A stretch of DNA of 64,000 nucleotides from Camelus dromedarius (lineage: Eukaryota). Shown here in pieces: positions 18,072-57,084 of this stretch. Every line of letters starts with the position of its first letter. The stretch's first letter is position 1. The translations under genes were made by a program, and so were the position numbers. The stretch covers positions 11,036,001 through 11,100,000 of the forward strand of contig NC_087436.1 of NCBI RefSeq assembly GCF_036321535.1, read 5' to 3'. Below the pieces are notes generated by a model, which ran no database searches, was not told where the DNA came from, and worked only from the letters and a program-made list of their open reading frames with translations.

Positions 18072-21000
18072 GTTTTTATTTTTATTGGAGAATAGTTGAT
18101 GTACAATATTATATAACTTTCAGGTGCATAACATAGTGATTCACAATTTTTAATTTTAAAGGTTATACTCCATATATACTTATTGTAAAACATTGGCTAT
18201 ATTCCCTGTGCTGTATGGTATATCCTCACGGCTTATTTATTTTATACATAATAGTTTGTACCTCTCAATCCCCTATCCCTACATCGCCTCTCCACCTTCC
18301 CTCTCCCTTCTGGTAACCACTGGGTTCTATTCAGGTCTTCTGACTATTTTTTAATTGGGATTTTTCTCTTTTTGTAGTTTTGTGGAAAACATCAGTGTTT
18401 TGTAGTTTTCAGAGTATAGATCTTTCATCTCCATTTTTAGGTATTTTATTCTCTTTGAAGTAATTTTAAATGGGACTGTTTTCTTAATTTCTCTTTCTGA
18501 TAGTTCATTATTAGTATACCCAAAATCAACAAATTTCTGCGTATTAAACTTGTGTCCTTCAACTTTATTGGATTCATTTATTAATTCTAGTAATTTTTCG
18601 GTGGAGATTTTAGGGTTTTCTATAGGTGGTATTACATCATCTGCAAAGAGTGGCAGTTTTACTTCTTTCCTTCCAATCTGGATGCCTTTTACTTCTTTTT
18701 CTTGTCTAGTTACTGTGGCAAGGACTTCCAATACTATGTTAAATAGAAATAGTGCAAGTAAGCATCCTTTTATTGTTCCTCATTTTACAGGAGAAGCTTT
18801 CAACCTTTCACCATTAAGTATGATGTTAGCAGGGAGGATATAGATCAAGGGCTAGAGCACATGCTTAGCATTCATGAGGTCCTGGGTTCAATCCCCAGTA
18901 CCTCTTCTATAAACAAACAAACAAACAAACCTAATTACCTCCCCCCTCAAAACAAGCAAATTAAAAAAAATGTTCATGAGGGTTTGTCATAAATGGCTTT
19001 TATTCTCTTGAAATATGTTCTCTCTATACGAACTTTGATGACAGTTTTTATCATGAATGGATGTTGAATTTTGTCAGAGGTTTTTCTGTATCTATTGAGA
19101 TGATCATGTGATTTTTATCCTTCCTTTTGTTAACGTGGTGAATCATACTGATTGATTTGTGAATATGAAATCATTTTTGGGTCCCTGGCATAAATCTCAC
19201 TTGATTATGATGTATGATCTTTTTCATATCATACACCATGTGTATGTTGAATTTAATTTACTAATATTTTGTTAAGGAGTTTTGCATCTTTATTCTTTAA
19301 AGATATTGACATATACTTTTCTTTTTTGTAGTGTTTTTGTCTGGTTTTGGCATCAGGGTGATGATTGTCTTGTAGAATGACTCTGGGAGTGTTCTGTCCC
19401 CTTCAATTTTGGAGCAGAGATTGAGGTATTAGCTCTTCTTTATTTGTTTGGTAGAATTCCCCCATAAAGCCGTCTGGTCCTGGACTTCCATTTTCCAGGA
19501 TTTTTTCATCACAAATCCAATTTCACTACCAGTGATTGGTCTGTTCAGATTGTCTATTTCTTCTCGATTCAGGATTGGCAGGTTTTATGTTTCTAGAAAC
19601 TTGTCCATTTCTTCTAGGTTGTCCAGTTTGTTGGCATACAGTTGATTGTGGTATTTTAGTTAAGATTTTTTGGTGTCTCTGTAATATTGGTTGTTATTTC
19701 TCCTCTTTGATTTCTTATTTTGTTTATTGGGATCCTCCCTCTTATTTTCTTGATGAGCTTGTCTAAAGATTTACCAATTTTATTTACCTTTTCAAAGAAC
19801 CAGCTCTTGGTTTCGTTGATCTTTGCTATGGTTGTTTTGGTCTCTATTTTACTTGCTTTCTTTCTGATCTTTATTATTTCCTTCCTTCTGCTGATGTTGG
19901 GCTCTTCTTGTTCTTTTTTAATTATCCCTTTAGGTGGAAAGTTAGATTGTTTATTTGCATTTTTCTTGTATCTTGAAGTAGGCCTGTATTATTATAAACT
20001 TCCCTCTTAGAACTGCTTTTGATGCAACCTATAGATATTGGAAAATTGTGTTTCTGTTTTCATTTGTTTCCAGGTGTTTTTTGATTTCCTCTTTGATTTC
20101 TTCATTGACTCATGGCTTTTTTAGTAGCATGTAGTTTCATCTCCATGTGTTTGTGCTTTTCCCATTTCTCTTCCTGTACTTGATTTATAGTTTTATATTA
20201 TCTTATCATAAAAAATGCTTGATGTAATTTTGATCCTCTTAAATTTGGTGAGACTTGTTTTGTGACCTAGCATGTGATCTGTCCTGGAGAATGTTCTGTG
20301 TGCCCTTGAAAATAATGTGTATTCTGAAGTTTTTGAATGGAAGGTCCCGTAGATATCTATTAAGTCCGATTGATCTATTGTATCTTTTAAGACCACTGTT
20401 GCCTAATCGATTTTCTGTCTGAATGATCTGTCCATTGATGTTAGTGGAAGACTAAAGTCCCCTACTATTGTTGTACTGTTGTCAATCTCTCCCTAAAGTC
20501 TGTTAGCATTTGCTTTATATATTTAGGTGCTCCTGTATTGGGTGAATATGTTAATGAGTGTAATATCTTCTTCTTGTATTGATCCCTTTGTGATCATATG
20601 ATGTCCTTTTATCTTTTGTTATAGACTTCGTTTTAAAGTCCGTTTTGTCTTTGCTACCTCCACTTTCTTCTCATTTCTGTTTGCATGAAATATCTTTTCC
20701 CCCTCTTTCAGTTTCAGTCTGTGTGTCTTTAGTTCTGAAGTAAGTCTTGTGAGCAGCATGTCGGGAGATCTTGTTTGTTTGTTTTAATCCAATCAGCCAT
20801 GCTGTCTTTTGATTGGAGTATTTAGTCCATTCACATTAAAGTAAATATTTATTGGTGGGTACTTACTGCCATTTTAATACTTGCTTTTGGTTGTTTTGTA
20901 GATCTTCCTTATTCTTTTCTTCTTATTGTAGTTTCTTCCCTTGTATTTTGATGATTTTCTTTAGTGATAAGCTTGTGTCCTTTCTCTCTTGTTTTTGTGT

Positions 21001-36036: not shown

Positions 36037-36159
36037 AAGGAGTGGGAAGGTAATTAGATTTATTTATTGATTTATTTATAATTGGCAATACTGATGATTG
36101 AACCCAGGACCTCATGCATGCTAAGCATGCACTGTACCACTGAGCTATACCCTTCACCC
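35996..36159 (-). mobile_element. Camelid tRNA-Ala-derived SINE (Vic-1-like) with 39-nt pure A tail
   Basis: 'attgaacccaggacctcatgcatgctaagcatgcac..accactgagctataccct' and 'ggtaattag'; T39 at 35996-36034. Confidence 0.9.
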
Positions 36160-43324: not shown

Positions 43325-43985
43325 ATATTTATTGAGCTCTTACATTGTGCAGTCATTTTTCACGATTGTCTCGTTTGATTCTTTATTACAGTCCTATAAG
43401 GTAAATATTATTACCCTTTTTTTTAATTGAAGGATAGTTGATTTTACGTTAATTTCTGGTGTACAACAAAGTGATTCAGTTATACATATATATATTCTTT
43501 TTCATATTCTTTGTAGGTTATTACAAGGCATTGAATATAGTTCCCTGTTCTCAACAATAGTACCTTGTTGTTTATCTATTTTGTATATAGTAGTATCTAC
43601 AAACCCCAAACTCCTAATTTACCCCCTGCCCATTCCCCACTGGTAACCACAAATTTGTCATCTATGTCTGTGAGTTTGTTTCTGTTTTGTAAATAAGTTC
43701 ACTTGTGTTCTTTTTTTTTTAAGTTTCCACAAATAAGTGTTATCATGTGATATTTGTCTTTCTCTGACTTATTTTACTTAGTATGACAATCTCCAGGTCC
43801 ATCTATGTTGCTGCAAATGGCATTATTTCATTCTTTTTTATGGCTGAATAGTATTAGATTTATTATCCCATTTTACAGATGAAAAAAATCTTGGGCTCAG
43901 AGAGATAAGTAATCTAGACCCAAATCACAGTCATTCTTAAAAAGGCAAGCTTCCAACTCGAGTCTGCCTGAGCCCAAAGTCTACA
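43325..43985 (-). mobile_element. MIR split by an L1 tail insertion
   Basis: MIR core resumes at about 43860 'tattatcccattttacagatgaaaaaa..gctcagagag'. Confidence 0.7.
43416..43855 (-). mobile_element. 5'-truncated L1 3'UTR tail
   Basis: Poly(T), 'atttctggtgtacaac', 'gttgctgcaaatggcattatttcattctttttta'. Confidence 0.9.
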
Positions 43986-44040
43986 TGTGCAGCTATGTTT
44001 AGATACTGCTTCCCAAATAGAAATTTCCTACGAAACTGCT

Positions 44041-44490
44041 TGCCTTCATTTCTTAGGGTTGCTATAACAAATTACCATAAACTGGATGGACTAAAGCAAG
44101 AGAGCTTATTTTCCCATAGTTTTGGACACCCCAAGATCAAAATCAGTGTGTCAGTGGGACTGCACTCCCTCAAGAAGCTCAGGGGCATAATCCTTACTTC
44201 CCTCCCTCCCCATTTGGTGACATCAACTATTCTTTGGCTGTGGAAGGACAGTCCCATCTCTGCCTCCTCCTCCACACAGCTCCTCCTGTGTGCCCCTGTG
44301 TCTTCTCTTCTGTTTCTCATAAGGACATTGGTCATCAGATTTAGGACCTAATTCAGAACTATCTCATCTTGAGATCTTTACCTTAAATTACATCTGCAAC
44401 AACCCTTTTTCCAAACAAGTTCACACTCATAGGTACCAGGATTTGGGGCTTAGATATATCTTTTGGAACGCCACAATTCAACCCACTAGA
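44041..44490 (-). mobile_element. ERVL-MaLR solo LTR (MLT1C-like)
   Basis: 'agggttgctataacaaattaccataaactgg..ttacatctgcaacaacccttttccaaac..ccacaattcaacccacta'. Confidence 0.85.
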
Positions 44491-44964
44491 ATAATGCTTC
44501 AGTGGAGTTTACAGGACAAGCTGGAGTCAGGGAACAGGAGAGAGTATCCCAAGAAGAAATAGCAGACCAGACAGGTAAGAGAAAGCCACATGGGAAACCA
44601 CATATACTCTGTTACACTGGGAACACCAATATACAAATAAACAAACAAAAGCATAAGCTGAGAAAAGAGGTTCAAAAACTAGAGAGAGTTCAAATAATCA
44701 AGAAACTGGCCCACCAATCTAAGTTATTAGGGTTACATTCAAGACATTTTATGTAAGGGAAAAAATAATTAATTATGCATTTGATGAAAGACACTTTAGT
44801 GCCAATATCTAGGCAACATTACAGGATGGGAATTTGTGGTGAGGAAGATCCAATAGGTAGCCTTTGTCATAACCCAGGTGGAAGAGAATAGAACAAAGAC
44901 CATTAAAAAGGAGAAGGGGTTACGAAATCAAATGATAGCAAAGGATAGATTTGACTAGACTTGA

Positions 44965-47900
44965 CAGCTTTGCTGTGCAGAAGCTTTTTAGTTTGATAGG
45001 TCCCATTTGCTTACTTTTGCTTTTGTTTCCCTTGCCTAAGGAGACATATCCAAATATATGTATATATAGCTAAGACCAATGTCAAAGAAAGTACTGCTTA
45101 TGTTTTCTTCTAGGAGTTTTATGGTTTCAGGTCTTGCACTGAAGTCTTTAATCCATTTGGAGTTTAGTTTTGTATATGATGTGAGAAAGTGGTCCACTTT
45201 CACTTTTCCATATAGCTGTCCAGTTTCCATAGCACCACTTATTGACGAAGTTGTCTTTTCCCCATTGTATATTCTTATCTCCTTTGGCATAGATTAACTG
45301 ACCATATGTGTGTGGGTTCGTTTCTGGGCTCTCGGTTCTGTTCCATTTATTTATGTGTCTCTTTATGTGCCAGGCCATACTAATGTGATTATTGTAGCTT
45401 TGTAGTATAGTTTTGAAATCAGGAAGCGATACCTACAGCTTTGTTCTTTAAGATTATTTTGGCTATTCATCATCTTTTGTGTTCTATACAAATTTTAGGA
45501 CTATTGCTTCCAGTTCTGAGAAAAAATACATTGATATTTTGATGCAGATTGCACTGAATCTGAAAATTGCCTTGGGGAGTATGGTCATCTTAATAATATT
45601 AATTCTTCCAAGACATGAGCACACTATATCTTTACACTTATCTATACATCTTTCATTTCTTTTGTCAGAATCTTATACGGTAGTTTTCTGAGTACAGGTC
45701 ATTTACCTCCTTGGTTAGATTTATTCCTAGTTATTTTCCTTTTCATGCAATTGTAAATGAGCTTGTTTACCTAAAGTCTTTGTTATTATTGTATAGAAAC
45801 ACAACAGATTTCTGTATATTAATTTCATAGGCTGCCACTGAATTGAATTCATTTATCAGTTCTAATAGCTTTTTAATGGTGTCTTTAGGAGTTTTTATAT
45901 AGTATCATGTCATGTGCAAACAGTGACAGTTTTACTACTTTTATCCATTTTAGATGTCTATCATCTCTTTTTTCTTGCCTGATTGCTATGGCTAGGACTT
46001 CCAGTACTATGTTGAATAAAAGTGGTGAGAGTAGGCACCCTTGTACTGACCTCGATCTTAGAGGAAGTGTTTTCAGCTTTTCACTATTGAATATAATGCT
46101 GGCTATGGATTTTTCATATATGGTCTTTATGATGTTGAGGTATATTTCCTCTGTACCCATTGTGTTGAGCATTTTATCTTAAACTGATGTTGAATATTGT
46201 CAAAAGCCTCTTTTTGCATCCATTGAGATGATCATATGGTTTTTATTCTTCAATTTGTTAATGTGGTCTATCACATTGACTGATTTGCAGATATTGAAAA
46301 ATCCTTGCATCCTTGGGTTAAGTCTTACTTGATCATGTTGTTTTATCCTTTTAATGTATTGTTGAATTCAGTTTGCTAACATTTTGTTAAAGATGTTTGC
46401 ATCTGTGTTCATCAGGGACACTGGCCTGTAACTTTCTTTTTCTGCTATGTCCTTGTCTGGTTTTGGTATCAGGGTGATGGTGCCCTTATAGAATGTGGAA
46501 TACTTCCTCAATTTTTTTTGGAGCAGTTTGAGAATAGGTGTTAACTATTCTCTAAATATTTGGTTGAATTCACCTTTGAAGCCATCTATTGATAGACTTT
46601 TGCTTTGGGAAGTTTAAAAATTACTGATTAAATTTCATTACTGGTACTTGTTCTGTTCATATTTTATATTTCTTCCTGATTCAGTCTTGGGAAATTGTAT
46701 GTTTCTAGGAATTTGTTAATTTCTTATAGGTTGTCCATTTTATTAACATATAGTTGTAGTAAACTCTTATGATTCTTTGTATTTCTGTGGTGTCAGTTGT
46801 AACTTCTCTTTCATTTCTGATTTTATTTATTTGGGTCCTCTCATTTTTCTCTTGATTAGGCTGGCTGAAGATTCATCAATCTTGTTTATCTTTTCCAAGA
46901 ACCAGCTCTTAGTTTCATTGATCTTTTCTGTTTTTTCTTTTAGTCTCAATTTCATTTATATCCACTTTATTATTCCTTCCTTCTATTAATTTTGGGCTTA
47001 GTTTGTTCTTCTTTTTGTAGTTCCTTTAGTGTAGATTATTTGTTTATTTGAAGAGCTTTTTGTTTGTTTGTTTCCTGAGGTAGGACTGTATTGCTATACA
47101 CTTTCCTCTTTAAATTGCATTTCTGTGGTCCATCAATTTTGGATCATTGTTTCTGTTTTCATTTGTCTCCAGATATTCTTTGAATTCTTCTTTATTTCTT
47201 CAGTGACTCACTGGTTGCTTAGTAGCATATTATCTAATCTCCATGTGTTTGTGTTTTTTGTAATTTTGTCTTTATAGCTGATTTCTTATATTTCTATAAC
47301 ATCGTGGTTGGAAATGATGCTTGACATGATTTCTTCTTAATTTTATTGAGACTTGTTTTGTGGCCTAGCATGTGATTTATCCTGGAGAGCGTTCCATGTG
47401 CACTTGAAAAAAAAAGTCTATTCTCCTGCTTTTGGATGGAAGAGTCCACATATATATCAATTAATTTCATCTTATATAATGTGTCATTTAAGGCCAGTGT
47501 TTCTTTATTGTTTCTCTGTCTGGAGAATCTGTCTATTGATGTAAGTGGTATGTTAAATTTTCTTACTATTATTGTTTACTATCAATTTCTCCCTTTTATG
47601 TTTGTTAATATTTGCTTTATGGATTTAGGTGCTCCTATGTTGGATGCATAGCTATTTACAAATGTTTATCTTCTTGTTAGATTGATCAATTTATCATAAT
47701 GTAATGGTCTTCTTTGTCTCTTGTTACAACCTTTGTTTTAATGTCAATTTTGTCTGATATAAGCAGTGCTACCCTGGCTTTTTATCTCAACTTCAGTTCT
47801 GAATGATAACCTCACTGGATAAAGTATTCTTAGTTGTAATTTTTTCTTTCAGCATTTTGACTATATTATGCCAGTCTCTTCTGGCCTCTAAAGTTTCTGC

Positions 47901-49712
47901 TGAAAAATCAGCCTATAGCCTTATGGGGCTTCCCTTGTATGTAACTAGTTGTTTTTCTCTTGCTGCTTTTAAAATTCAGTCTTTAACTTTTGACACTTTA
48001 ATTGCTGTGAGTCTTGGTGTGGATCTTTGTGGATTCATCTTATTAGACACTCTTTATGCTTCTTAGACTTTGATATCTGTTTCCTTTGCCAGGTTAAGAA
48101 GTTTTCAGCCATTACTTCTTCAAATAGGGTTTCTGTCTCTTTCTCTTCTTCTTCTAGGATCCCTATAATGCAAATGCTAGTACGTTTGATGTTATCCAAA
48201 AGGTCCCTTAAACTGTCCATCTTTTCATACTCCTTTTTTTTCTGTTCTCATTTACACTACCCTGTCTTTTGGACCACTGATCTGTTCTGCAACCTGTAGT
48301 CTGCTGTTGAGTCCATTTAATGTGTTTTTCATTTCAGTTATTGTATTATTCAGTTTTGATTGGTTCTTTTTTATATTTTCTTTCTCTTTGTTGAAGTTCT
48401 CACTGAGTTCATCTATTTGTCTTTCAAATTCAGTGAGAGTTTTTGTGACTATACTTTGAACTCTTTACCTGGTAAATTGCTGATCTGTTTTGGATAATTC
48501 CTTTTCTGAGATTTTGTCTTGTTCTTTTGTTTGAAAGGTATTCCTGTGTCTCCTCATTCTGACTAACTTTCTTTGTTTCTATATATTAGATATATCAGCT
48601 ATATCTCCCACTCTTGAAAGAGTGGCCTTATGTAGAAGGTTTCCTGTGGGACCCAGCAGCACAATCCCCCCTGGTGACCAGAGCCAGGTGTCCAAGGGTA
48701 TCCCCTGTGGGGTCTGGGCATGCTCTTCTATTGTGGTTGGGTGATGATTGCTGCAGGTGTGCTGGTGTGTGGGGCTGGCCCTTGGCCCATCTGGCTGAGA
48801 AGTCTGGCCACAACTGCTGCAGGCATGCTGATGTACCATGCTGGCCTCTGTCATGACTGGCTATGAGGTCTGGACACAAATGTTGCAGGCCCACTATTGT
48901 GCAAGACTGGCCCCCCTGGAGCAGGAGCTGCTTTGGAGGGGTGTCAGTGCCAGCCAAGGCTGCCTGTCAGGCAGGGAGGGGTACGAGACCCTTTGGAGAG
49001 GCTGGCTGGGGTGGGCATTTTGAATAGGGCAGGTTCTCGGGGGAATTCTGGGGCAGGGTATGATGCTGATGGAGAGTGACAGATATGGCACCTGCCAGTG
49101 CTGAACCAGCTGGGTGGAAGGAATGTTAAAAAAAAAAAAAAAAAGGCACCCACCAGACATCCATTCCCAGAGGAAGTTCCACCAGATCTCTGCCCCTCCA
49201 GCACATGCCGTAAATTAGTCCCTGAATCTCTTCATATGACAAAGGTGCTTTTCAAGTGCTGCCTCAGCACTGGGACTCAAAGTGAGTGAGTTTGTGTGTG
49301 AGCCCTTCAGGAACAGAGTCTCAGTTTTTCGTAGCCCTTTATCTCTCCCAGTTGTTTACACTCAAAGCCATATGTTAAGGGGGCTTGTCTTCCCAGTGCA
49401 GGTCCCCTGGGCTAGGGGGCCCAATGTGGATCTTGGACCCTCGCTCCTCAGGGAGAACCTCCATGGTTGTAATACCCTTCTGCTAGTGGGTTGCCACACC
49501 AGGGTGGGCATTCTGACTGGACCACATCTCTGCCCCTCCTACCCAGCTCAGTGTGGCCTTTTTTATATGCTTAGTTGTAGAAAAATCTGTTCTGCTAGTC
49601 TTTGGGTCATTCTCTGGAGTAGTTAGCCTGCATATAGCTATTGTTTTGGTATGTCCATGGGAGAAGGTGAGCTCTGGGTCTTCCTACTCCACCATCTTGA
49701 TCTGGACCTCTC
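44965..49712 (-). mobile_element. Older L1 with intact 5' end (5'UTR about 1.15 kb), ORF1 and ORF2; 3'-truncated, internal deletion at about 47785
   Basis: Minus ORFs 45885-46172 (RT; LSLFAHD) and 48035-48220 (ORF1); 5' terminus 'caagatggtggagtaggaagac' (YY1-type) at about 49680-49700. Confidence 0.95.
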
Positions 49713-49739
49713 AAGAGCTCCACTTTAAATGGAACCATT

Positions 49740-50790: not shown

Positions 50791-51269
50791 CAAAAGATGG
50801 ATAAGTACAAATTCTTTAACATAGAACTAATCCAGGGCAATCCATATGAAGTGCCACCATTCACACTGTGATATGCTCGTCTCCACATCATTCACTTTTT
50901 TCTCATTAATGGTTTTGTTTGGATCAACAGAAAAATCAAGTTACTTTTAATATGCTTAAAGAAAAATTTGTTTTTTCATAAGAAAAGAAAAAATTAGGTG
51001 GGTAGGGACGTGAGAAAAATTGTACGAGGTCTTCTTCCATGCTTTCTTGTTGGGAGTGCTGTTTCCTTTTGCCAAGATTCAAGGCTGAGGCCAGTCATTC
51101 CCTTCTCTGCCCCCAGCCCCACTGAAGAGGTCGGCACCTCTTCCACCGCTGCCATCATCCCTGCCTTCTCCTTTCTTTGAATAGGGGCAACTGCTTGCTG
51201 AAGTGTGATGTATGAAGAGGTGGGAGGAAATGAGCCTGATACCTCAGAAGCTTCAACTCAGGAGGAGGC

Positions 51270-51280
51270 CAAGATGGCGG
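51270..51280 (+). promoter_or_regulatory. YY1 site of the L1 internal promoter
   Basis: CAAGATGGCGG about 10 nt from the L1 5' end, the canonical position in mammalian L1s. Confidence 0.8.
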
Positions 51281-51517
51281 AGTAGAAGGACGCTTGTAGC
51301 TCACCCTCTCCCCACAAATACACCAAGACTCACATCTACAGACCCACTTAGCCAACCAGAGCACCCGCGGAACTCGGACAGAATATCGTCCTCTTCAAAA
51401 GACAGAGATGCCAAAAACCTGTTTATTCCTACATAGGCATTAGATAGATAAATAAATAAGCTCCTTAAGGACCACAGTAGATAACTGATACTCCGTAAAC
51501 CACAGTGCCAGAGAGGT

Positions 51518-52419
51518 ATGAGCAAGATGAAGAAGCAGAGAAATCATTCCCAATTAAAGAGCAAGAGAAATCCCCTGAAAGAACGATCAATGAAACAGAC
51601 ATCGATAGCCTACTAGATCAAGATTTCAAAAAAGGAGAGATCAAAGTACTGAAGGAACTAAAAGAGATAGTGTTTAGAGATATAAAATATGTCAAAAATG
51701 AAATGGAAGCTATAAAAAAGAGCCAAGTAGAATTGGTAAACTCATTGGCTGAGATGAGAAATGATCTAAAGGCTGTGCAAAGTAAACTAGGTAATGTAGA
51801 GGAACGAATAAGTGACCTAGAAGACAAGACAACAGAAAGCAACCAATCAGAACAGCTACAAGATAAACAAATAAAAACAAATGAAAATAGCACAAGGGAC
51901 CTATGGGATAATATAAAGTGTGCCAATCTTCACATAATAGGGGTCCCAGAAGAGGAAGAAAGATCAAAGGGGATTGAAAAGGTATTGGAAGAAATCATGA
52001 CTGAAAACTTCCCAAACTTAAAGAAGGAATCAGATATCCAAGTACAGGAAGCTCAGAGGGTCCCAAACAGGAAGAACCCAAACATACCCACACCAAGACA
52101 TATCATAATCAAGATGGCCAGAGTCAAGGAGAAAGAAATGATCCTAAAGGCAGCAAGAGAAAAGCAAAGAGTGAGTTACAAGGGAACCCCCATAAGGCTC
52201 TCAGCTGATTTCTCTACACAAACACTACAGGCCAGAAGGGAGTGGCAAGATATATTCAAAGTCCTGAATGAAAAAAAGATGCAGCCTAGGATACTTTATC
52301 CAGCAAGGCTATCCTTTAGGATAGAAGGAGACATAAAGAATTTCACAGACAAGAAAAAGCTACAAGAGTTTAGCAATACTAAACCCATGGTAAAAGAAAT
52401 ATTGAAAGGTCTACTCTAG
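51518..52419 (+). pseudogene. L1 ORF1p (coiled coil, RRM, CTD); one N-terminal frameshift at about 51556
   Basis: ATG at 51518 gives MSKMKKQRNHSQL, then the frame shifts to KEQEKSPE...; REKQRVSYKGTPIRLSADFS, ARREW and YPARLSF motifs; stop at 52419. Confidence 0.9.
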
Positions 52420-52834
52420 AAAAGCAGCAGGATGCTACAGAAATGAGAAACTCACAACTAGAAAGGTGATAACTCATGAATTACAAATAAAATAAACATG
52501 AAATTGTAAAAGAAGACATCTAAATCATTGAGAGTGGGAGAGGGAGGCAGGAAAGTATAGAATTTTTTTTCTTTCTTTTTTAAATTTTTTGTTCTTAGTA
52601 GGATGGGTTTGAGATCATGTTACTATCAGTTAAATAAAAATAGTTGTAGTAATGGGCTAATAGACTTACAAAAAAGGGTAACCACAAGCCAAAAACTTAC
52701 AAGGGAGTCACAAAAACTAAATAAAGTCCATGATAATACAAAGGAAAATTACCAAACCACAAAAGGAAAAAGAAAGGAACAAAGAGGAAATACCAAATCA
52801 ACTGCAAAGATAAGTTCCAAATTGCAATTAAAAA

Positions 52835-55800
52835 ATGGCAATAAACACACATCTGTCATTAATTACTGTAAATATTAATGGACTAAATGCTCCAGTCAAG
52901 AGACAAAGAGTGGCAGACTGGAAAATAAAGCAAGAACCTTCAATATGCTGCATACAAGAGACCCACTTTAGGGAGAAGGACACATACAGATTGAGAGTGA
53001 AAGGATGGAAAAGGATATTCCATGCAAATGAAAAAGCCAAAAAAGCAGGTGTTGCAGTACTCATTTCAGACAAAATAGACTTTAAAACAAAGTCCATAAA
53101 GAAAGATAAAGAAGGACATCTTATAATGATTAAAGGAGTAATAAAAGATGAAGATATTACACTTGTTAATATATATGCACCCAATATAGGAGCACCTAAA
53201 TACATAAAACAATTACTAACAGAGATAAAGGGGGATATTGATAGGAATACAATCACAGTTGAATATTTTAACACCACATTAACATCACTAGACAGATCTT
53301 CCAGACAGAAAATAAATAAGGCAACAGAGAAATTAAATAATACAATAGAAAAATTAGATTTGGTGGATATTTTCAGAGCATTACACCCTCAAAAAATAGG
53401 ATATATATTCTTTTCAAGTGCACATGAAACATTTTCTAGGATTGATCATGTACTTGGGCACAAAAGAAACCTCAACAATTTTAGAAAGATAGAAATTATC
53501 TCAAGCATCTTTACTGACCACAATGCTGTGAAACTAGAAATCAACAACAGAGAAATGAAGGAGAAAAAAAGGAAAGCATGGAGATTAAACAATATGCTAT
53601 TAAAAAACCAATGGGCCAATGAGGAAATCAAAGCTGAAATTAAAAAATACCTTGAGACAAATGAAAATGAAACCACAACCACACAAAATTTATGGGACAT
53701 AGCAAAGGCAGTGGTAAGAGGGAAGTTTATAGCGATACAGGAATTCCTCAAAAAAGAAAACAATTTCAAATAAACAATTCAACCCACCAGCTGAAAGAAT
53801 TAGAAGAAGAAGAACAAAAAACCCCAAAAGGCAGCAGAAGGAAGAAAATTATAAAGATCAGGGAGGAAATAAATAAAATAGAGATTTACAAAAACATGGG
53901 AAAAATCAATCAAACCAAAAGCTGGTTTTTTGAAAAAGTAAATAAAATTGACAAACCTCTGGCAAAACTCACAAAGAAGAAAAAAGAGAGAGCACAAATT
54001 AGCAAAATAAGAAAGGAAAGTGGAAAATTACAACAAATAAAATAGAAATACAGAATATCATATGAGAATATTATGAAAAACTATATGGAACCAAACTGGA
54101 TAACCTAGAGGAGATGGACAAGTTTCTGGAAACATACAGTCCACCAAGACTGAATCAAGAAGAAACTGATCACTTGAACAAACTGATCACTAGAAATGAA
54201 ATCGAAATAGCAATAAAAAACCTCCCTACAAATAAAAGTCCAGGACCGGACAGCTTCACCGGAGAATTCTACCAAACATACAGAGAAGAACTCATACCAG
54301 TCCTTCTCAAACTCTTCCAGAAGATTGAAAAGGAGGGAATACTCCCAAATTCATTCTATGAAGCCACCATCACCCTGATACCAAATCCAGGCAAAGACAC
54401 TACCAAAAAAGAGAATTATAGGCCAATATCACTAATGAACATAGATGCCAAAATCCTCACCAAAATATTAGCAAATAGAATCCAACAGCACATAAAAAAG
54501 ATTGTACATCATGACCAAGTGGGGTTCATCCCAGGGACACAAGGGTGGTTCAACATATGCAAATCAATCAATGTAATACATCACATCAACAAGAGAAAGG
54601 ACAAAAACCACATGATCATCTGAATCGATGCAGAAAAAGCATTTGATAAAATTCAATACCCATTTATGATAAAAACTCTCACTAAAGTGGGTATAGAGGG
54701 AACATATCTCAACATAATAAAAGCTATATATGACAAACCTACAGCCAGCATAGTACTCAACAGTGAAAAAACTCAAAAGCTTCCCACTAAAATCTGGGAC
54801 AAGACAAGGATGCCCACTATCACCACTCCTATTCAACATAGTCTTGGAAGTCCTAGCCACAGCAATCAGGCAAGAGAGAGAAATAAAAGGGATCCAAATT
54901 GGAAAAGAAGAGGTAAAAGTGTCACTATATGCCGACGACATGTTACTATACATAGAAAACCCTAAAAGGTCCACACAAAAACTACTAGAGCTGATTGAAG
55001 AATTCAGCAAGGTGGTAGGTTACAAGATTAACGTTCAAAAATCAGTTGCATTTCTTTACACTAACGATGCATCAACAGAAAAAGAAAGTAAAGAAACAAC
55101 TCCCTTTAAAATAGCACCCAAAGTAATAAAATATCTGGGAATAAATCTAACCAAGGAGGTGAAAGAATTATACACAGAAAACTATAAACCATTGATGAGG
55201 GAAATTAAAGAAGACTTTAAAAAATGGAAAAATATCCCATGCTCTTGGAGTGGAAGAATCAATATTGTTAAAATGGTCACACTGCCTAAGGCAATCTACA
55301 GATTTAATGCAATCCCTATCCAATTACCCAGGACAGATTTCACAGAACTAGAAAAAATCATAATAAAATTCATATGGAACCATCAAAGACCTAGAATTGC
55401 CAAAGCATTACTGAAGAGAAAGAAAGAGGCTGGAGGAATAACTCTCCCAGACTTCAGACAATACTATAGAGCTACAGTCATCAAGACAGCATGGTATTGG
55501 TACCAAAACAGACATATAGACCAATGGAACAGAATAGAGAGCCCAGAAATGAACCCACAAACTTTTGGTCAACTAATCTTCGACAAAGGAGGCAAGAATA
55601 TACAATGGAATAAAGACAGTCTCTTCAGCAAATGGTGTTGGGGAAAGTGGACAGCAGCATGTAAAGCAATGAAGCTAGAACACTCCCTTACACCATATAC
55701 AAAAATAAACTCAAAATTGATCAAAGACTTAAACATAAGACAGGATACAATAAACCTCCTAGAATAAAATATAGGCAAAGCATTATCTGACATACATCTC

Positions 55801-56635
55801 AAAAATGTTCTCCTAGAACAGTCTACTGAAGCAATAGAAATAAAAGCAAGAATAAACAAATGGGACCTAATGAAACTTACAAGCTTCTGCACAGCAAAGG
55901 AAATCGTAAGTAAAACACAAAGACAACCTATAGAATGGAGAAAATTTTTGCAAATGAAACCGACAAAGGCTTGATCTCCAGAAAACATAAGCAGCTCATA
56001 TGACTTAATGAGAAACAACCAAACAACCCAATCCAAAAATGGGCAGAAGACCTAAACAAGCAATTCTCCAAGGAAGACATACAAATGATCAATAGGCACA
56101 TGAAAAAGGCTCAGTATCACTAATTATAGAGAAATGCAAATCAAAACTACAATGAGGTCACCATGTCAGAATGGCCATTATTCAAAAATCCACAAATGAC
56201 AAGTGCTGGAGAGGCTGTGGAGAAAAGGGAACCCTCCTTTACTGCTGGTGGGAATGCAGTTTGGTGCAGCCACTGTGGAAAACAGTATGGAGATTCCTCA
56301 AAAGACTAGGAATAGACTTACTGTATGACCCAGGAATCCCGCTCCTGGGGATATATCCAGAAGGAACCCTACTTCAAAATGACACCTGCACCCCAATGTT
56401 CATAGCAGCACTATTTACAATAGCCAAGACATGGAAACAGCCTAAATGTCCATTAACAGATGACTGGATAAAGAAGTGGTATATTTATATGAAGGAATAC
56501 TACTCAGCCATAAAAACCAACAACATAATGCCATTTGCACCAACATGGATACTCCTGGGGAATGTCATTCTAAGTGAAGTAAGCCAGAAAGAGAAAGAAA
56601 AATACCATATGAGGTCGCCCATATATGGAATCTAA
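52835..56635 (+). pseudogene. L1 ORF2p (APE endonuclease, RT, C-terminal Cys-rich domain), disrupted
   Basis: Endonuclease ORF 52835-53773 (NINGLN, QET, TDH); RT YADD at 54928-54939; CWRGC..CWWEC; frameshifts near 53760, 54030 and 54770 and premature stops at 54621 and 55765. Confidence 0.95.
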
Positions 56636-57084
56636 ACAACAAGAAAAAAAACAAAAACAAACAAAAACAAAGAAAACATAAATACAAAACAGAAATAGAC
56701 TCATAGACATAGAATACAAACTTGTGGTTGCCAAGGGGGTGGGGGGAGGTTGGAAGGGACAGACTGTGATTTCAAAATGTAGAATAGATAAGCAAGATTA
56801 TACTGTATAGCACAGAGAAATATACACAAGATCTCATGGTAGGTCACAGAGGAAAAAAAAGTGACAATGAATATATATATGTTCATGTATAACTGAAAAA
56901 TGTACTGTACACTGGAATTTGACACAACATTGTAAAATGATTATAAATCAATAAAAAATGTTAAAAAAAGAAAAAATTAAGAGATATTTTTCAGTATGTT
57001 GAAGCATTGTCAGTTATGCGTTTTTACCAGTTTATAAAATTGAGATAAACAGCTGATTGTAAACAAATATTCAAACGATATTTA

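What the first reader, a model, noticed from the sequence alone, without database searches (positions are those of the whole stretch)
50983..51260. Candidate 5' transduction: 264 bp of non-L1 DNA carried inside the TSD of a young L1
Seen: the 14-bp sequence at the L1 3' end (aaaagaaaaaatta, 56966-56979) recurs at 50983-50996, not next to the L1 start (ggaggaggcCAAGATGGCGG, 51261). The intervening 264 bp are much more GC-rich than the flank, start with G, and end in 'agaagcttcaactca', which could be the TSD of the donor L1. Known: 5' transductions arise when an L1 is transcribed from an upstream promoter, and they are much rarer than 3' transductions. Inference: this copy records a donor locus and a host promoter that drove it in the germline.
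Basis: partly seen in the sequence, partly recalled or inferred. Interest (0 to 1): 0.7.

Follow-up and report, generated by a model that had tools for sequence, protein, structure and literature searches.

The report
Host exons spliced onto camelid L1
A dead LINE-1 jumping gene carries at its front two exons of a host gene with their intron removed, so it was likely copied from a host transcript spliced onto the element, a rare kind of hybrid recently catalogued in humans.

Summary
The 14-bp duplication occurs only at 50983 and 56966 (0 of 618 control windows reach 14), and the 264 bp are not part of the L1 family 5'UTR. Contigs from public runs show the segment is two exons of an unidentified intron-containing gene, joined without the intron. 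Exon A (50998-51174) is followed at its source by GTGAGT. Exon B (51175-51261) is preceded there by a pyrimidine tract plus CAG and followed by GTTTGT. The L1 starts exactly at that donor, and one extra G precedes exon A. The proposed 'donor TSD' is just the end of exon B, so this is not contiguous flank. The L1 is dead (both ORFs broken) and its 257-nt 5'UTR is likely spliced too. Best reading: the host promoter transcribed through an intronic L1 and spliced into its first bases (0.55). Rivals are a reverse-transcriptase jump and trans-splicing. No donor L1 or empty site could be seen. It is a new member of the mRNA/LINE-1 5' chimeras of Law and Burns 2026 (closest: MAP3K13/L1PA5). The scan noted similar chimeras in other genomes before. 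A second intronless copy of the same exons exists elsewhere.

The parts
50983..50996 (+). 5' target-site duplication (14 nt exact; 17 nt from 50980 with one mismatch)
50997..50997 (+). One G not present at the source gene (C there); likely copied from the RNA cap
   Evidence: loose ends before 50998 in X10 and X18; cap reading from PMC9341517 passages
50998..51174 (+). Host exon A (177 nt), likely the first exon; CpG-rich DNA lies upstream at the source and a GTGAGT donor follows it there
   Evidence: X10 records 10, 11, 13; X1 record 3; loose ends at 50998 and 51174
51175..51261 (+).
   Evidence: X10 record 14, X1 record 4, X2 record 25; loose ends at 51175 and 51239
51262..51518 (+). L1 5'UTR, only 257 nt; G51261 can be read as the last exon base or the first L1 base
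   Evidence: (summed depth 30.9 to 33,517 across 51261 in X1)
51421..51422 (+). Likely internal splice (or deletion) junction of the L1 5'UTR
   Evidence: 24 X1 contigs carry a pyrimidine tract ending AAGT before 51422; the neighbouring older L1 has GGTAG right after the aligned position
51519..52419 (+). L1 ORF1, frameshifted near its start
   Evidence: (PF02994, PF17489, PF17490)
52835..56635 (+). L1 ORF2 in six pieces (endonuclease and reverse transcriptase remnants)
   Evidence: PF03372, PF00078
56636..56965 (+). L1 3'UTR, AATAAA at 56950, and a few residual A's
56966..56979 (+). 3' target-site duplication

Best explanation
The insert is one L1 insertion whose first 265 bases are two intron-less exons of a host gene, and it was likely reverse-transcribed from a host-promoter transcript in which the second exon was spliced in cis to the first bases of a sense L1 lying downstream in that gene. 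Shown: the TSD encloses exons plus L1; the exons are separated by an intron with GT and AG ends at their source; the L1 joins exactly at the exon-B donor; one extra G leads the insert. Inferred: (1) exon A is the capped 5' end of the transcript; (2) a full-length L1 sat in intron 2 or further down and may since have been lost; (3) the acceptor AG was formed by the last flank base plus the L1's first G, which is why no acceptor is visible inside the L1; (4) the first 160 nt of the L1 acted as an internal exon, because a donor near +160 was joined to an acceptor near the end of the 5'UTR; (5) ORF2p inserted this RNA at an A-rich site in the germ line, and the copy then decayed.
For:: source contigs stop at 51174 (X10 record 13, X1 record 3) and start at 51175 (X10 record 14, X1 record 4, X2 record 25). 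The X10 loose ends read GTGAGT after exon A and a T-run plus GCAG before exon B. In X1, X2 and X10 (3 of 4 runs laid) the loose end after 51239 matches 51240-51261 at 18 of 23 columns (by eye) and then reads GTTTGT. 7 of 10 scored window-private changes are CpG decay, as expected for a promoter exon moved into methylated DNA (established knowledge). Splicing of the L1 part: acceptor-like tract before 51422 in 24 X1 contigs, donor-like GGTAG at the aligned place of the neighbouring older L1, and a UTR of 257 nt against more than 1,140 nt there. A 31-mer starting one base before the L1 start (A, then GGAGG) has depth 15 in X2 against about 5 for single loci (record 30), so other copies likely also have AG at the boundary. 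Precedent: RAP1GDS1 exons spliced in cis to an intronic, UTR-spliced L1PA2 (PMC13174262). By my reading of its Table S5, 5 of the 11 rows (of 17) whose L1 begins at or near its start show the spliced-UTR junction, against about 2% of full-length human L1s (PMC5860796).
Against: No donor L1 was seen; the longest source contig reaches only about 476 nt into intron 2 (record 14). No contig bridges intron 1, so exons A and B are linked only through the two retrocopies. An A-rich TSD makes a poor pyrimidine tract for an acceptor at +1. The donor side of the UTR junction was not seen in this family, and the junction has one T fewer than a clean splice of the consensus would give. Law and Burns found no intronic L1 for 15 of 17 human cases and favour trans-splicing. 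The donor after exon A and the acceptor before exon B are printed for one run only (X10; 8 loose-end rows were not shown).
Confidence: 0.55

Rival explanations
1. Template jump: ORF2p copied a full-length L1 RNA to its 5' end, then jumped onto the free 3' end of the host exon A-B splicing intermediate and copied that to its cap.
For: The junction is exact on both sides (exon end and L1 start) with 1-2 shared G's, and no acceptor is needed. Template switching is a listed route for sense chimeras (PMC13174262). An earlier scan note proposed the same for a fish LINE (e1-8601215, unchecked).
Against: It needs the likely UTR splice as a second, independent rare event. Law and Burns do not favour it where a splice junction is present. 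Free 5'-exon intermediates are short-lived (own knowledge).
Confidence: 0.2
2. Trans-splicing: the exon-B donor was spliced to an acceptor at the 5' boundary of an L1 transcribed, with upstream flank, from another locus.
For: Same junction anatomy. It is the model preferred for 15 of 17 human cases without an intronic L1.
Against: It needs a read-in L1 transcript and a rare reaction. A lost polymorphic intronic L1 explains the same data, as the authors also note. The length of intron 2 is unknown here.
Confidence: 0.15
3. One reading: contiguous read-through from a promoter upstream of a donor L1 whose flank happened to be an older intron-less retrocopy of these exons, with the L1 inserted at the exon-B end.
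For: An intron-less second copy of the exons exists (X2 record 27, X2 record 24).
Against: That copy has 14 scored private changes that this insert lacks and continues with different sequence after 51261. This insert is closer to the intron-containing gene. An L1 landing exactly on an exon end is unlikely by chance. No further copy was seen in the five runs laid.
Confidence: 0.05
4. Two separate insertions or chance: a short processed pseudogene was there first and the L1 landed at its end, or the TSD match is chance.
For: The TSD is A-rich and the empty site was not seen.
Against: 0 of 618 controls reach 14 nt. No poly(A) or second TSD lies at 51261. Source homology starts two bases after the TSD and ends at a splice donor.
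Confidence: 0.05

Closest known systems
Human mRNA/LINE-1 5' chimeric insertions, especially MAP3K13/L1PA5 and FHIT/L1PA4 (Law and Burns 2026, PMC13174262; sections 13 and 15 part 1 and Table S5 read)
   Same: Sense-strand spliced 5' exons ending at a splice donor, joined to the first bases of a near full-length L1, one untemplated 5' base, all inside a 14-15 bp TSD. The MAP3K13 row also shows a spliced L1 UTR (my reading of Table S5).
   Different: A camelid-type L1 and a different, unidentified host gene (no likeness by eye to the 17 listed segments). Arrival as one unit is shown here by TSD and source boundaries, not by a multi-species alignment.
RAP1GDS1/L1PA2 promoter co-option (PMC13174262, passages of section 14)
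   Same: Two host exons spliced to an L1 whose 5'UTR is internally shortened; the host promoter likely replaces the L1 promoter.
   Different: There the intronic donor L1 is known, the acceptor lies 15 bp upstream of it, and supporting RNA reads exist. Here the join is at L1 +1/+2 and no donor or RNA was found.
SpIREs, L1 copies with a spliced 5'UTR (Larson et al. 2018, PMC5860796; passages read)
   Same: Short 5'UTR with a likely GT-AG junction.
   Different: Defined for human L1PA1-6 splice sites; the donor side is not seen for this family, and typical SpIREs carry no host exons.
Contiguous L1 5' transduction (e.g. the 4-bp macaque case, PMC9341517; passages read)
   Same: Extra 5' sequence and an untemplated G inside the TSD.
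   Different: There the extra bases are the donor's immediate flank; here they are spliced exons.

Membership tests
L1 insertion by target-primed reverse transcription | TSD flanking the whole insert | tested here: met
   14 nt exact, 17 with one mismatch; 0 of 618 controls
L1 insertion by target-primed reverse transcription | L1 ORF1 and ORF2 domains in order | tested here: met
   Pfam hits in 4 of 7 pieces scanned; both ORFs broken
L1 insertion by target-primed reverse transcription | 3' poly(A) tail and endonuclease-type T/A site | tested here: inconclusive
   AATAAA at 56950 but only a few A's remain; T-rich then A-rich target, an imperfect match to TT/AAAA (motif as in Table S5)
mRNA/LINE-1 5' chimera (Law and Burns 2026) | 5' part maps in sense to spliced exons of a single-copy gene | tested here: met
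   GT after 51174, AG before 51175, intron absent in the window
mRNA/LINE-1 5' chimera (Law and Burns 2026) | 5' part ends at a splice donor | tested here: met
   CAG then GTTTGT at the source in X1, X2, X10
mRNA/LINE-1 5' chimera (Law and Burns 2026) | Near full-length L1 (over 5 kb) | tested here: met
   51262-56965, about 5.7 kb, starting at the family's 5' end
mRNA/LINE-1 5' chimera (Law and Burns 2026) | 5' part begins at the transcript start | tested here: inconclusive
   CpG-rich upstream loose end, one extra G, and a second retrocopy starting near the same place; no start-site data
mRNA/LINE-1 5' chimera (Law and Burns 2026) | Both parts arrive together (empty site in outgroups) | not testable with these tools
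   no genome held; the three DNA runs laid all carry the insertion
Contiguous 5' transduction | Segment is the unspliced flank directly upstream of a donor L1, ending in the donor's TSD | tested here: not met
   the segment is split by an intron at its source and the proposed TSD is exon sequence
L1 subfamily 5'UTR | Segment present in other family copies | tested here: not met
   summed contig depth 30.9 before and 33,517 after 51261 in X1; other copies show unrelated flanks
SpIRE (spliced L1 5'UTR) | Precise removal of a GT-AG intron from the L1 5'UTR | tested here: inconclusive
   acceptor-like tract in 24 contigs; donor seen only in an older L1; one-T discrepancy

The most novel reading that the evidence does not exclude
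One host gene fed its first two exons into L1 twice, through two different L1 subfamilies. The second intron-less copy continues after exon B with 14 nt and then a G-rich stretch ending in ATCAAGAT, like the start of the older L1 in this window, and its contig breaks 59 nt on in all three DNA runs, as it would on entering a repeat. If so, this gene is a recurrent promoter donor, and acceptors created at the flank/L1 boundary plus a donor near L1 +160 would be a general route to such chimeras without trans-splicing.
Probability: 0.25. Interest if true: 0.62.

Novelty: new member of a known kind. Interest (0 to 1): 0.42.

Why it matters
The class was catalogued only in 2026, with 17 human cases, and its mechanism (cis-splicing, trans-splicing or template switch) is open. 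This is a clean case from another mammalian order with every boundary at base resolution. Its likely double splice favours host-promoter transcription through an L1, the route by which an L1 with a damaged promoter can still move and by which L1 may gain new 5' ends. The copy itself is dead and no function is indicated.

Tried and rejected
No whole genome is held, so neither BLAST against the assembly nor an empty-site alignment was possible. Pattern scans found nothing: the segment in metagenome contigs, the L1 start in metagenome and viral contigs. Earlier scan notes had no look-alike of the segment or of the UTR. Rfam over the whole window gave 2 tRNA-like hits, none in the segment. The segment has no meaningful second match in the window (best E 0.57). 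Expression: X17 and X18 hold exact pieces of this locus at depth 4 and 2, but the X17 contig runs 63 nt into the upstream flank and both libraries may contain DNA, so this is no evidence of transcription. No contig of the spliced source mRNA was listed in X18; some records are filtered, so this proves nothing. Only 5 of the 24 runs listed were laid (X1, X2, X10, X17, X18); X19 (organism D, share 0.52) was not. The second retrocopy was rejected as donor (private changes, different continuation). PMC2768975 (passages) had no bearing; PMC8605555 (passages) gave no L1 subfamily or 5'UTR data.

Full report
Observation. The 14-mer lies at 50983-50996 and 56966-56979 and nowhere else in the window; it extends to 17 nt with one mismatch. 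In a control, the L1 3'-end region was compared with 618 other 400-nt windows on both strands: the longest exact match was 13 nt (4 windows) and 0 of 618 reached 14. The segment is 51.5% GC against 35.2% upstream. The element is an L1: Pfam finds ORF1 domains and the endonuclease and reverse transcriptase of ORF2 in 4 of the 7 pieces scanned. It is dead: ORF1 is frameshifted and ORF2 lies in six pieces.

The segment is not family 5'UTR. No genome is held, so I used public runs. Of 24 runs listed, 17 hold all sampled words of the segment, among them runs of three organism labels (14 rows are marked as possible sources of this DNA). Five runs were laid. In X1 the summed contig depth rises from 30.9 (51220-51260) to 33,517 (51261-51301), and other L1 copies show unrelated, mostly A-rich flanks before their start. 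Summed depth is no copy number, but it marks the family's 5' end at about 51261. Single contigs span flank, segment and L1 start in X1, X2 and X10, so the junctions are not an assembly artefact, although these runs may include the window's source.

What the segment is. One search shows a second locus in pieces. X10 record 10 aligns at 50998-51092 (7 differences) with a CpG-rich loose end upstream, whose last base is C where the window has G (50997); X18 shows the same end. X10 record 13 and X1 record 3 align at 51089-51174 (6 differences) and stop; the X10 loose end there begins GTGAGT. X10 record 14, X1 record 4 and X2 record 25 start at 51175 (5 differences to 51239); the X10 loose end before it is a pyrimidine tract ending in CAG. 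In X1, X2 and X10 the loose end after 51239 matches window 51240-51261 at 18 of 23 columns (counted by eye) and then reads GTTTGT. So the source is a gene with an intron between 51174 and 51175 and another after 51261, and the window holds the spliced form. Exon A differs from its source at 13 of 177 positions (records 10 and 13). Of 10 scored changes private to the window, 7 are CpG decay (position 51051 was left out because X2 aligns it differently, and differences near contig ends are not listed by the tool). This fits a promoter exon copied into methylated DNA (established knowledge). The gene could not be named.

A second retrocopy. X2 record 24 (576 nt; 51004-51261; 30 differences, 3 gaps), X1 record 2, X10 record 12 and X18 record 20 show a third locus with both exons joined, its own upstream flank, and different sequence after 51261. 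It has 14 scored private changes that the window lacks (the four at 51038-51060 rest on X2 alone and lie near gaps), so it is not the donor. Its continuation may be exon 3, making it an ordinary processed pseudogene. It may instead be 14 nt plus an older L1 start: the printed 30 letters end in ATCAAGAT, as in the start of the older L1 at 49700, and the contig ends 59 nt on in all three DNA runs. I could not decide.

The L1's own 5'UTR. It is 257 nt, against more than 1,140 nt in the neighbouring older L1. Before 51422, 24 contigs in X1 carry a pyrimidine tract ending in AAGT (agreement 0.63). The older L1 aligns, loosely, up to the base matching 51421 and continues GGTAG. This suggests a spliced-out UTR intron, but the donor side was not seen in this family and the junction has one T fewer than expected, so a plain deletion or a short-UTR subfamily is not excluded.

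Mechanism. Shown: TSD around both parts, spliced exons in sense, join at a splice donor and at the L1's first or second base, one extra 5' G. Inferred: the G is from the cap (PMC9341517 passages); exon A is the first exon; the RNA was inserted in the germ line. The junction alone cannot separate cis-splicing, trans-splicing and a template jump. I favour cis-splicing into a sense intronic L1 (0.55). A flank ending in A plus the L1's first G makes an AG at the boundary, and a 31-mer with that AG has about three times single-locus depth in X2 (record 30). With a donor near +160 the L1's first 160 nt would form an internal exon of normal size (inference). In Table S5 of PMC13174262, 5 of the 11 rows (of 17) whose L1 begins at or near its start show, by my reading, the same UTR junction as the RAP1GDS1 element that the authors call spliced (two of the five are the RAP1GDS1 pair), against 131 of 6,609 full-length human L1s (PMC5860796). 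Against this: no donor L1 was seen, an A-rich TSD is a poor acceptor context, and the authors found no intronic L1 in 15 of 17 cases and favour trans-splicing.

Comparison and novelty. Law and Burns 2026 describe 17 human L1 insertions with mRNA or lncRNA fused 5'; six end precisely at splice donors, and in some the L1 part maps to the first 10 bp with no L1 acceptor. MAP3K13/L1PA5 has the same anatomy as this insert. 5' transductions are under 1% of new human germline insertions. I read the outline, passages, section 13, the first part of section 15, all three parts of Table S5 (long cells cut) and passages of supplement 1; one supplement (mmc7) could not be read. 'Camel' and 'alpaca' do not occur in its main text. 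Six literature searches (listings only, except the five papers opened) showed no camelid case, which does not prove there is none. Earlier scan notes report similar host-exon chimeras in other genomes and a 55-nt L1 leader in this one (unchecked). Interest 0.42.

Noticed in passing
source-gene contigs (X1 records 3, 4; X2 record 25; X10 records 10, 13, 14): In X1 both source contigs have about half the depth (4.7, 4.9) of this locus (8.5) and of the second retrocopy (9.7); in X2 and X10 the depths are similar. This would fit a hemizygous, for example X-linked, source gene, but contig depth is a weak measure.
   Followed up: no
third locus, X2 record 24 (aligns to window 51004-51261): A second, more diverged intron-less copy of the same two exons; what follows exon B (exon 3 or an older L1 start) is unresolved.
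   Followed up: partly
window about 43400-49714, minus strand: An older, long L1 with a 5'UTR of more than 1,140 nt lies head to head with this insert, about 1.3 kb away.
   Followed up: partly
PMC13174262 Table S5: By eye, 5 of 11 human chimeras that start at the L1 5' end carry the spliced-UTR junction; in the parts I read the authors remark on this only for RAP1GDS1.
   Followed up: partly
window 52420-52834: The spacer between ORF1 and ORF2 is about 415 nt and holds a T-rich tract.
   Followed up: no
window 18834-18905 (+) and 36083-36152 (-): Two weak tRNA-like Rfam hits, probably SINE heads or tRNA pseudogenes.
   Followed up: no
window 51261-51270, loose ends: Many related L1 copies have a different purine-rich start before 51270, so at least two 5'-end types exist in the family.
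   Followed up: no
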